Shown: piece after piece, positions 16,833 to 18,101 of the stretch
How the letters are laid out: every line of letters starts with the position of its first letter
Position numbering within the stretch: the first letter of the stretch is position 1
Notes under the pieces: model-generated
What the model saw: only the letters and a program-made list of their open reading frames with translations
The model's database searches: none
Told to the model about the DNA's origin: nothing
Translations under genes and position numbers: made by a program
Source: Pocillopora damicornis
Taxonomy: Eukaryota
Assembly: GCF_003704095.1 (NCBI RefSeq)
Contig: NW_020845389.1
Coordinates: 310,001-374,000, forward strand
DNA length: 64,000 nucleotides
Direction: 5' to 3'

Positions 16833-18101
16833 ATGAATATCCGGATTCTGCTGTTGATTGCCATTGGACTGGTACTCTGTGCCGCTGATCCAATCAAGAG
16901 TAAGTAAAAATGCTTATCAGCATATCTTATTTCCTTCTCCATAGCAAAGCCCTTTCGACTCTAAAGAGAGTGCATCTTTTATTAAATGGTTTAGCCGTAA
17001 AATTTAATAGAAAATCTAGAACGACAAACCCACCCTGATGAATTTTGCTTATTATTTGTGCGTAAGAAGTGGGTATAATTAAATCTACACAAGGCCTTTC
17101 TAAAATCCAAAGATATCACTACATCTGTTTTGATAACCTGCATTTAGACAATTTTGCAAAATTCCAAGAGATAGAGACTTGAGGCAGCTATTACAATTTT
17201 TTTTCCGCCAAAATGACAATTGTCCCCAAAATTCAGGTTGCTACAAGAAAACCTCATACTCAGATTTGTGCAGTGTTTGGTGGAAAATGTGAGGTTTTCC
17301 GATTAAAGAGAATGAGTGACTGCCGTTTAGTCAATTTGAATTGGGTAAAGAATGCTTAAAATAAGCAATATAAATGTAGTCGCAATATGTGGCCTCGTAG
17401 TTCCATTGAAGGCATCAGTGAAGATTGAAAGTGTTTTGATTGCTTTTCCAATTACTGGACCATTTTCTTCCTCACTCTTCTGCTATTATTTCTAACCCTC
17501 CACTGTTTTCTCAAGAAAATTATTTTTCTTTTAACAACAGAAATATGCTACAAATGAAAAAATCTGAATATGTCACTTGTTGTTATATCCAGGAAATATG
17601 TCTTTGATTAGGCGAAAAGGCGCACACAAAACCTCTGGATGTAAGGAACAAAGTCACCTATGATCTAAGATGGCGGTATTAAGACCGGATCAAGAGGAAC
17701 TTGAATAATTATCTAGAACTACCTCGAAGTGATGAACTACCTACTTCCTTCACAATCTCAATATATCATGCAGAAAACATAAAATGAAAGCTGACAAACT
17801 TAAAAACCGCGAGCAAGGAGGATTGTCTTGATGAGACAATAAATTTAATGACAGCTGGTGAGATCTTGAGAATTCAAAGTAGTTAGAAAGCTAAACGTTG
17901 ATTTTGCTTGACATTTCAGCCAAAAGGGATGCGCAATACAATTACATGTATCCTGGTTCCGAAGGATCCCAAGGCCCCCAAGGCCCTATTGGTAACGCGG
18001 GAAGACGAGGACCAACCGGAGATCCCGGACCACCAGGACCACCCGGACCTCCTGGACCACCCGGACCACCCGCTCCACCAGGCCCCGCCGGAAGAAGATA
18101 A
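16833..18101 (+). CDS. Gene 6: very short collagen (~82 aa precursor) with a cysteine-free mature peptide
   Basis: Exons 16833-16899 ([22 protein letters not shown]; donor GTAAGT 16900) and 17920-18101 ([12 protein letters not shown]-(GXY)13-APP-GPA-GRR*). Confidence 0.88.

What the first reader, a model, noticed from the sequence alone, without database searches (positions are those of the whole stretch)
16833..18101. Cysteine-free 57-aa 'micro-collagen' with a Tyr-rich head
Seen: after the signal peptide and KR, the mature peptide is DAQYNYMYP plus 16 triplets, with no Cys. It therefore cannot join a disulfide network. Inference: the YxYxY head may serve dityrosine or DOPA cross-linking or adhesion (spirocyst threads are adhesive), or the peptide is a soluble or heterotrimer component. 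It is small enough to be missed by annotation pipelines.
Basis: partly seen in the sequence, partly recalled or inferred. Interest (0 to 1): 0.7.

Follow-up and report, generated by a model that had tools for sequence, protein, structure and literature searches.

The report
Cysteine-free coral minicollagen variant
This is a real, spliced coral gene for a very short collagen that sits among the stinging-capsule genes but lacks the cysteine hooks such proteins normally use to polymerise, and its tyrosine-rich start is missing in several relatives, so it is probably a non-cross-linked structural part of the capsule or its thread rather than a tyrosine glue.

Summary
The gene encodes an 82-aa precursor: signal peptide, KR, a 9-aa head with 3 Tyr, then 16 triplets (13 perfect, one Gly-to-Ala break) and no mature Cys. 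The predicted intron is spliced in 1 of 3 RNA runs, and a non-coding leader exon is likely. Orthologues (5 loci, 3 protein clusters) share the promoter, introns and triplet core; one locus also shares the upstream neighbour. The core is under purifying selection (pS about 0.6-0.7, pN about 0.19). The ends vary: five close relatives keep two head Tyr plus a CC tail, one has CC without head Tyr, one has no Cys, and the Acropora cervicornis protein has neither Tyr nor Cys. A required dityrosine/DOPA role is therefore not supported; the helix is what is conserved. Best reading: a minicollagen-cluster paralogue that lost both cysteine-rich domains and acts as a non-covalently held short triple helix in a cnidocyst. 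A spirocyst role is plausible, because incomplete minicollagens in the apparently matching Nematostella cluster mark spirocytes, but that match rests on gene-ID order only. Cell type, trimer state and modifications are untested. New variant of a known kind; moderate interest.

The parts
16452..16608 (+). Conserved non-coding block (probable promoter and non-coding leader exon; leader ends at 16597, GT donor at 16598)
   Evidence: blastn 75% over 159 nt to L008 and 77% over 86 nt to L004; donor conserved in both; a 10-letter loose end in RNA run X13 before 16824 matches 16586-16595 at 9 of 10 letters. Leader start not known.
16598..16825 (+). Probable 5'-UTR intron (GT..AG)
   Evidence: Donor and acceptor conserved in L004 and L008; loose end. 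Not listed as a joint, so weaker than the coding intron.
16833..16899 (+). Coding exon 1: signal peptide (about 18 aa, cleavage judged by eye) and start of a 7-aa propeptide
   Evidence: Hydrophobic core and phase-1 donor; its three best matches among 11 exon-1 peptides are those of L007, L008 and L004
16900..17919 (+). Phase-1 intron in the propeptide, 1020 nt, GT..AG
   Evidence: Joint 16899>17920 in 1 of 3 RNA runs and 0 of 1 DNA-like run; same acceptor position before KR in 5 of 5 coral-type loci
17922..17927 (+). KR propeptide cleavage site
   Evidence: Invariant in 9 of 9 aligned rows
17928..17954 (+). 9-aa head with three Tyr; Asp-Ala precedes the Gln that directly follows KR in all relatives
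   Evidence: two Tyr shared with 5 of 8 other rows, none in 3 of 8
17955..18071 (+). 13 uninterrupted Gly-X-Y triplets, ending in five Gly-Pro-Pro; invariant Glu (triplet 1), Arg (triplet 6, Y position), Asp (triplet 8, X position)
   Evidence: purifying selection
18072..18098 (+). Invariant Ala-Pro-Pro break, one more triplet, then Gly-Arg-Arg (inferred trimming/amidation signal). CC-bearing relatives continue here with a short CC tail
   Evidence: 4 of 9 cluster genes examined end in Gly plus basic residue(s)
18099..18268 (+). Stop codon and 3' UTR, AATAAA at 18247
   Evidence: RNA contigs end at 18219 (X13) and 18268 (X11) (contig ends are only a weak hint)
14194..15272 (+). Upstream neighbour: minicollagen with N-CRD, 13 triplets, Ala-Pro-Pro break and a CC-only tail; likely sister paralogue
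   Evidence: Spliced in 2 of 3 RNA runs; its orthologue lies directly upstream in L008, 70% over 341 nt; same 13-triplet frame

Best explanation
A minicollagen-cluster paralogue that has lost its N-terminal cysteine-rich and polyproline region in all members seen, and in some lineages also the residual C-terminal CC. Shown: gene structure, splicing, orthology by synteny and promoter, purifying selection on the triplet core, and labile ends. Inferred: it enters the cnidocyte secretory route like its neighbours, is cut at KR, is probably trimmed by Asp-Ala removal to an N-terminal Gln (pyroglutamate) and at the Gly-Arg-Arg end (amidation), is prolyl-hydroxylated, and folds into a short triple helix nucleated at the C-terminal Gly-Pro-Pro run. 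With no Cys or Lys it is held non-covalently, as filler or fibril in a cnidocyst structure outside the disulfide wall polymer, most likely in the spirocyst (thin wall or thread microfibrils). The Tyr head and CC tail are optional, lineage-specific extras.
For: Cluster of same-strand secreted CRD and minicollagen genes with the same phase-1 propeptide intron. Splicing. 31 invariant positions in 9 rows, all in KR or the triplet core, while head and tail vary. pS 0.59-0.72 against pN 0.19-0.20 for window vs 5 loci; 0-1 replacement against 4-9 silent changes among four close loci, over 45 codons. Cys-free forms appear with two different tails (L007 vs window/Acropora), which suggests two losses. 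In Nematostella, incomplete 'minicollagen-like' genes carry IDs next to NCol-6 and NCol-7; like-4 is in 62.8% of spirocytes vs 0.3% of other cells; NvNcol0 (NV2.11820) marks late spirocytes. Tursch et al. argue that helix nucleation precedes CRD association, so CRDs need not be required for folding.
Against: No expression by cell type, localisation, proteomics or structure model for this gene. No Nematostella sequence was seen, so matching it to a spirocyte gene rests on gene-ID order and on the first window gene resembling the text description of NCol-7 (much shorter here). No member identifiable as an anemone, octocoral or medusozoan protein turned up, though most hits carry no taxon. Two of three RNA runs gave contigs reading through the intron. 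Nematostella also has short domain-less 'collagen-like' proteins that are broadly expressed. The processing steps rest on recalled peptide biology, not on a test.
Confidence: 0.45

Rival explanations
1. Heterotrimer chain: it co-folds with a Cys-bearing minicollagen, most likely the upstream neighbour with the same 13-triplet frame, and lowers the number of CRDs per trimer, giving a looser and thinner disulfide mesh such as the spirocyst wall.
For: Same 13 triplets plus Ala-Pro-Pro break in both genes; in L008 both continue with one more triplet, two residues and CC. The genes are adjacent in the window and in L008. Low-valence CRD partners open pores in CRD polymers in vitro (PMC4863159 section 6).
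Against: Core X/Y identity does not single out the upstream gene: 11 of 26 for the window pair against 7-10 for other blocks, and ties at 10 for four loci. The invariant Arg and Asp five residues apart would also suit a homotrimer (inferred from the pair geometry in PMC12086834). No binding test was obtained.
Confidence: 0.2
2. One reading: head tyrosines form dityrosine or DOPA links that replace disulfides or make the thread sticky.
For: Two head Tyr shared with 5 of 8 other rows, and 7 of 8 have at least one Tyr at an end. Nematostella capsules resist reduction, implying unidentified non-disulfide cross-links (PMC3145756). The window form has most head Tyr and no Cys.
Against: 3 of 8 rows have no head Tyr; the Acropora protein has neither Tyr nor Cys although its core is the closest to the window's (21 of 30 X/Y positions). 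The 5 Tyr-headed rows are near-identical and count as about one lineage. Tyr count does not rise with Cys loss (CC forms 3 Tyr, Cys-free forms 3, 1 and 0). None of the top 20 of 94 listed papers concerned Tyr cross-links in cnidocysts, judged by titles and abstract starts.
Confidence: 0.12
3. A short collagen of the general matrix or mucus, expressed outside cnidocytes, left in the cluster by descent only.
For: Broadly expressed domain-less collagen-like proteins exist in Nematostella; NvNCol-like-1 also appears in a mucous gland state.
Against: Minicollagen-type propeptide, KR and intron, a cluster position kept in L008, and cnidocyte-aligned expression of the Nematostella minicollagen set.
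Confidence: 0.12
4. A precursor of amidated signalling or bioactive peptides, cut at KR and at both Gly-Arg-Arg sites, with the collagen pattern a relic.
For: Internal and terminal Gly-Arg-Arg in the window, Acropora and (internal only) L007; Gln after KR in all relatives.
Against: The internal site is Gln-Arg in 6 of 9 rows; every third Gly is invariant for 13 triplets; the segment that would be released varies.
Confidence: 0.07
5. A decaying truncated minicollagen without function.
For: Loss of both CRDs; intron-reading contigs in 2 of 3 RNA runs.
Against: Strong purifying selection and near-saturated silent sites; conserved promoter and splice sites; the listed differences in the three RNA contigs over exon 2 all fall outside the coding part.
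Confidence: 0.02

Closest known systems
Canonical cnidarian minicollagens (Hydra NCol-1, NvNCol-1/3/4)
   Same: Signal peptide, short propeptide ending in KR, intron in the propeptide, 13-16 Gly-X-Y triplets, place in a minicollagen cluster (definitions in PMC3145756 and PMC7981951).
   Different: No N- or C-terminal CRD, no flanking polyproline, no mature Cys; about 5.5 kDa against 11-15 kDa.
Nematostella 'minicollagen-like' 3 and 4 (NV2.11816, NV2.11818) and NvNcol0 (NV2.11820)
   Same: Like-3 and like-4 are described as having incomplete minicollagen features; all three have IDs following NCol-7 and NCol-6, and all are expressed in spirocytes. One may be the orthologue.
   Different: Their sequences and domain diagrams were not visible; whether any is fully Cys-free, and which window gene each matches, is untested.
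Nematogalectin-type collagen-lectin proteins (Acropora A044-C2, A032-H1)
   Same: Secreted, with a short collagen domain and a lectin domain where minicollagens have CRDs, expressed in presumed cnidoblasts (PMC2629781 passages).
   Different: No lectin domain here: stop codon and polyadenylation signal follow the triplets.
Acropora cervicornis hypothetical protein KAK2570405.1 (P5673_005211)
   Same: Same core and Gly-Arg-basic end, 75% identity over the aligned part: the probable orthologue, uncharacterised.
   Different: Head is 3 residues with no Tyr; its genomic context could not be fetched.

Membership tests
Minicollagen | N-terminal signal peptide | tested here: met
   Hydrophobic exon 1, conserved in L004, L007, L008; judged by hydropathy, no signal-peptide predictor run
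Minicollagen | 4-20-residue propeptide ending in KR | tested here: met
   About 7 aa, KR invariant in 9 of 9 rows; definition
Minicollagen | Central 12-16 Gly-X-Y triplets | tested here: met
   13 uninterrupted, 16 with the break; PF01391
Minicollagen | N-terminal cysteine-rich domain | tested here: not met
   Absent in 9 of 9 rows; no CRD exon in the intron
Minicollagen | C-terminal cysteine-rich domain | tested here: not met
   No Cys in window, L007, P0007; only a CC pair in the other 6 rows
Minicollagen | Polyproline stretches flanking the helix | tested here: not met
   None at the N side; only the Ala-Pro-Pro break at the C side
Minicollagen | Expression in developing cnidocytes and incorporation into the cnidocyst | not testable with these tools
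   Only bulk RNA contigs were available
Minicollagen | Triple-helical trimer | not tested
   No model obtained; inferred from sequence
Nematostella minicollagen-like 3/4 or NvNcol0 | Sequence orthology to the named gene | not testable with these tools
   No sequences in the text or supplements searched
Nematogalectin | [quoted passage not shown] | tested here: not met
   Only PF01391 found; frame ends at 18101
Tyr/DOPA adhesive or dityrosine structural protein | Conserved Tyr sites across orthologues | tested here: not met
   No Tyr column is invariant or nearly so; 0 Tyr in mature P0007
Tyr/DOPA adhesive or dityrosine structural protein | Oxidative Tyr modification in vivo | not testable with these tools
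   Needs mass spectrometry

The most novel reading that the evidence does not exclude
This family is a disulfide-independent collagen building block of the spirocyst: either the protomer of the sticky thread microfibrils or a heterotrimer chain that thins the wall mesh. The cluster would then preserve a graded series of cross-link valence (two CRDs, N-CRD plus CC, N-CRD only, CC only, none) that tunes capsule mechanics, with Tyr as a lineage-specific second chemistry.
Probability: 0.25. Interest if true: 0.75.

Novelty: new variant of a known kind. Interest (0 to 1): 0.45.

Why it matters
Minicollagens are defined by cysteine-rich domains, and surveys discard candidates without them, so a conserved Cys-free branch would be overlooked. 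The spirocyst wall is thin, its thread bears sticky microfibrils, and anemone capsules hold unexplained non-disulfide links. A 57-residue chain that can be synthesised, with natural variants with and without Tyr and CC, makes these questions directly testable. It is also a natural minimal collagen without a trimerisation domain.

Tried and rejected
No whole genome was held, so copy number outside the window is unknown. The profile search of representatives was swamped by long collagens (13,685 hits, best 150 listed); the full position-specific motif was in 6 of 167 stored proteins, all already in the family. Three homologue searches (5, 15 and 5 hits) returned the same three family clusters; only near lengths were searched, so fused or longer forms are not excluded. 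Of 8 metagenome loci, 3 (L002, L003, L006) were dropped as unrelated collagen-like frames lacking KR and the intron. ESM Atlas and PDB sequence searches gave generic collagen only. A 45-column tree had no well-supported branch (target with Acropora 78/100, weak), so it does not fix the order of Tyr and Cys losses. Core identity failed to identify the parent paralogue. No trimer model is available, so oligomer state is open. Depth from contigs was not used to rank expression. Three look-ups of earlier findings returned nothing. Paper searches (listings seen, at most 20 rows each) showed no paper on a Cys-free coral minicollagen; subscription journals, figures and bioRxiv supplements were not visible and may hold one.

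Full report
Observation. The window holds a same-strand cluster of secreted cnidocyst-type genes: minicollagens and cysteine-rich proteins, most with a signal-peptide exon ending in phase 1. RNA holders are labelled coral or marine metagenome and the only named relative is from Acropora, so the source is taken to be a stony coral. The finding's gene has ATG at 16833, a GT..AG intron 16900-17919 and a stop ending 18101, giving 82 aa. After KR the chain is 57 aa with 3 Tyr, 18 Pro, 15 Gly, no Cys and no Lys. Thirteen triplets are perfect, the fourteenth has Ala for Gly, and the last is Gly-Arg-Arg. It is the only one of 9 cluster frames examined without Cys; the others have 9 to 25 in their stop-to-stop frames.

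Expression. I laid 4 of 22 listed runs (3 RNA runs from 3 studies, 1 of unrecorded kind that behaves as DNA) on 11300-18600. The exact joint 16899>17920 appears in X13 (30 letters on the short side, likeness threshold 90) and not in X17, whose contig crosses the intron. X2 and X11 gave contigs that read into or through the intron; contigs cannot tell retention from pre-mRNA, DNA or path choice. The introns of the two upstream genes were each joined in 2 of 3 RNA runs. A 10-letter loose end in X13 matches the sequence ending near 16597 at 9 of 10 letters, and that donor and the acceptor at 16825 are conserved in L004 and L008, so a non-coding leader exon is likely. The differences listed for the three RNA contigs over exon 2 all lie in the intron or 3' UTR.

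Relatives. Three protein searches returned the same three family clusters: P0002 (with Acropora cervicornis KAK2570405.1, hypothetical), P0003 and P0005. A pattern scan of metagenome contigs gave 8 loci, of which 5 have the same acceptor directly before KR and 3 were unrelated. Exon 1 was found in the 3 loci long enough to hold it. L008 carries the orthologue of the window's upstream gene directly upstream (70% over 341 nt) and the conserved block at 16452-16608 (75% over 159 nt). This makes L008 a positional orthologue. Over 45 core codons, pS is 0.59-0.72 and pN 0.19-0.20 between the window and the 5 loci; among four close loci there are 0-1 replacement and 4-9 silent changes (uncorrected). 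The protein is under purifying selection.

What is conserved. In 9 rows, 31 positions are invariant: KR, the glycines, many prolines, Glu in triplet 1, Arg in triplet 6, Asp in triplet 8, and the Ala-Pro-Pro break. The ends fall into four types besides the window's: two head Tyr plus a CC-Pro-Val-Tyr tail (L001, L004, L005, L008, P0003; near-identical, about one lineage); CC tail without head Tyr (P0005); no Cys, no head Tyr, one tail Tyr (L007); and neither Tyr nor Cys (Acropora). The window shares its truncated end and most core residues with Acropora (21 of 30 X/Y positions) and two head Tyr with the CC group. Tyr may thus be old in the family, but it is dispensable, and so is Cys. This is the main result against a required dityrosine or DOPA function. 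It does not exclude such chemistry in this lineage.

Origin. The upstream gene has an N-terminal CRD, 13 triplets, the same break and a tail reduced to CC; in L008 both genes run break, one triplet, two residues, CC. The upstream gene's signal peptide scores best against the L008 and L007 target exons (48 and 46, against 25.5 for the window target and 21 or less for other cluster genes). Tandem duplication followed by loss of the N-terminal region is the simplest reading, but core X/Y identity does not discriminate among paralogues and the small tree is unsupported, so this stays an inference.

Mechanism. Shown: the features above. Inferred from recalled peptide biology, not from a call: cleavage at KR, removal of Asp-Ala to expose the Gln that follows KR directly in all 8 relatives, cyclisation to pyroglutamate, trimming of basic residues and amidation at Gly. 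Four of 9 cluster frames end in Gly plus basic residues, so this end is a cluster trait. Tursch et al. (PMC4863159; passages and section 6 read) propose that helix nucleation precedes CRD association and show that low-valence CRD partners open pores in CRD polymers. A chain with five terminal Gly-Pro-Pro triplets could therefore fold without CRDs, and would either pack non-covalently as a homotrimer (my best reading, 0.45) or dilute cross-links in a heterotrimer (0.2). The invariant Arg and Asp five residues apart could make one axial contact per trimer, by analogy with the peptide designs in PMC12086834 (passages); this is a weak inference.

Cell type. In Nematostella, NCol-7, NCol-6, NCol-like-3 and NCol-like-4 have IDs 11814, 11815, 11816 and 11818 (PMC12549020; sections 6 and 7, passages and supplement searches), and NvNcol0 is 11820 (bioRxiv 2026.06.23.733813; parts 1-4 of 7 and passages). 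Like-4 is found in 62.8% of spirocytes against 0.3% of other cells, like-3 in both cnidocyte types, and NvNcol0 marks late spirocytes. The first window gene has four blocks of 13-17 triplets split by single-Ala breaks, like the description of NCol-7 though far shorter. If the clusters are collinear, the target lies in the part that is spirocyte-biased in Nematostella. I saw no Nematostella sequences or figures, so this is a lead, not a test. Zenkert et al. (PMC3145756; parts 1-3 of 4) report thin-walled spirocysts and reduction-resistant capsules, which keeps non-disulfide chemistry an open question.

Comparison and verdict. It works like a minicollagen in export and helix but fails three defining features (both CRDs and polyproline; definitions from PMC7981951 passages), so it should not be filed as a canonical member. 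It belongs with the 'minicollagen-like' incomplete proteins named in Nematostella, as their most reduced conceivable form. It is not a nematogalectin (PMC2629781 passages). The searches named under Tried and rejected showed no description of a Cys-free coral form; bioRxiv supplements and figures were not visible and may bear on this. CRD-based filters exclude such genes (bioRxiv 2026.06.16.732747 passages). Verdict: real, conserved, a new variant of a known kind; interest 0.45, rising to about 0.75 if it proves to be the spirocyst thread or wall-thinning component.

Noticed in passing
window 144-1687 (+): Minicollagen with four blocks of 16, 13, 13 and 17 triplets separated by single-Ala breaks and many Cys inside the helix; resembles the description of NvNCol-7 but is about a quarter of its length.
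   Followed up: partly
window 11460-12486 (+): Minicollagen with a double-length N-terminal Cys region, 12 triplets holding three Cys, and no C-terminal CRD, ending Gly-Arg; spliced in 2 of 3 RNA runs, with a 5'-UTR intron 11338-11443.
   Followed up: partly
window 14194-15272 (+): Minicollagen whose C-terminal CRD is reduced to CC; with its neighbours it forms a graded series of Cys loss along the cluster.
   Followed up: partly
window 8771-9858 and 20826-62124 (+): Further secreted Pro/Cys-rich multi-CRD genes without collagen, all on the + strand; no Pfam family for the two tested.
   Followed up: no
window 16452-16560: Short motifs conserved with L008 and L004 upstream of the leader exon, one resembling an NRF-1 site (name recalled); candidate cnidocyte regulatory elements.
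   Followed up: no
window 18860-19300: Two tandem copies of a tRNA-like dispersed repeat not called by ARAGORN; the only tRNA called is Thr(CGT) at 36153-36227 on the - strand.
   Followed up: no
window 14720-14860: Degenerate GACT-type simple repeat in the upstream gene's intron that attracts many unrelated contigs.
   Followed up: no
window 38994-39115: A 122-N assembly gap between two CRD-type frames.
   Followed up: no
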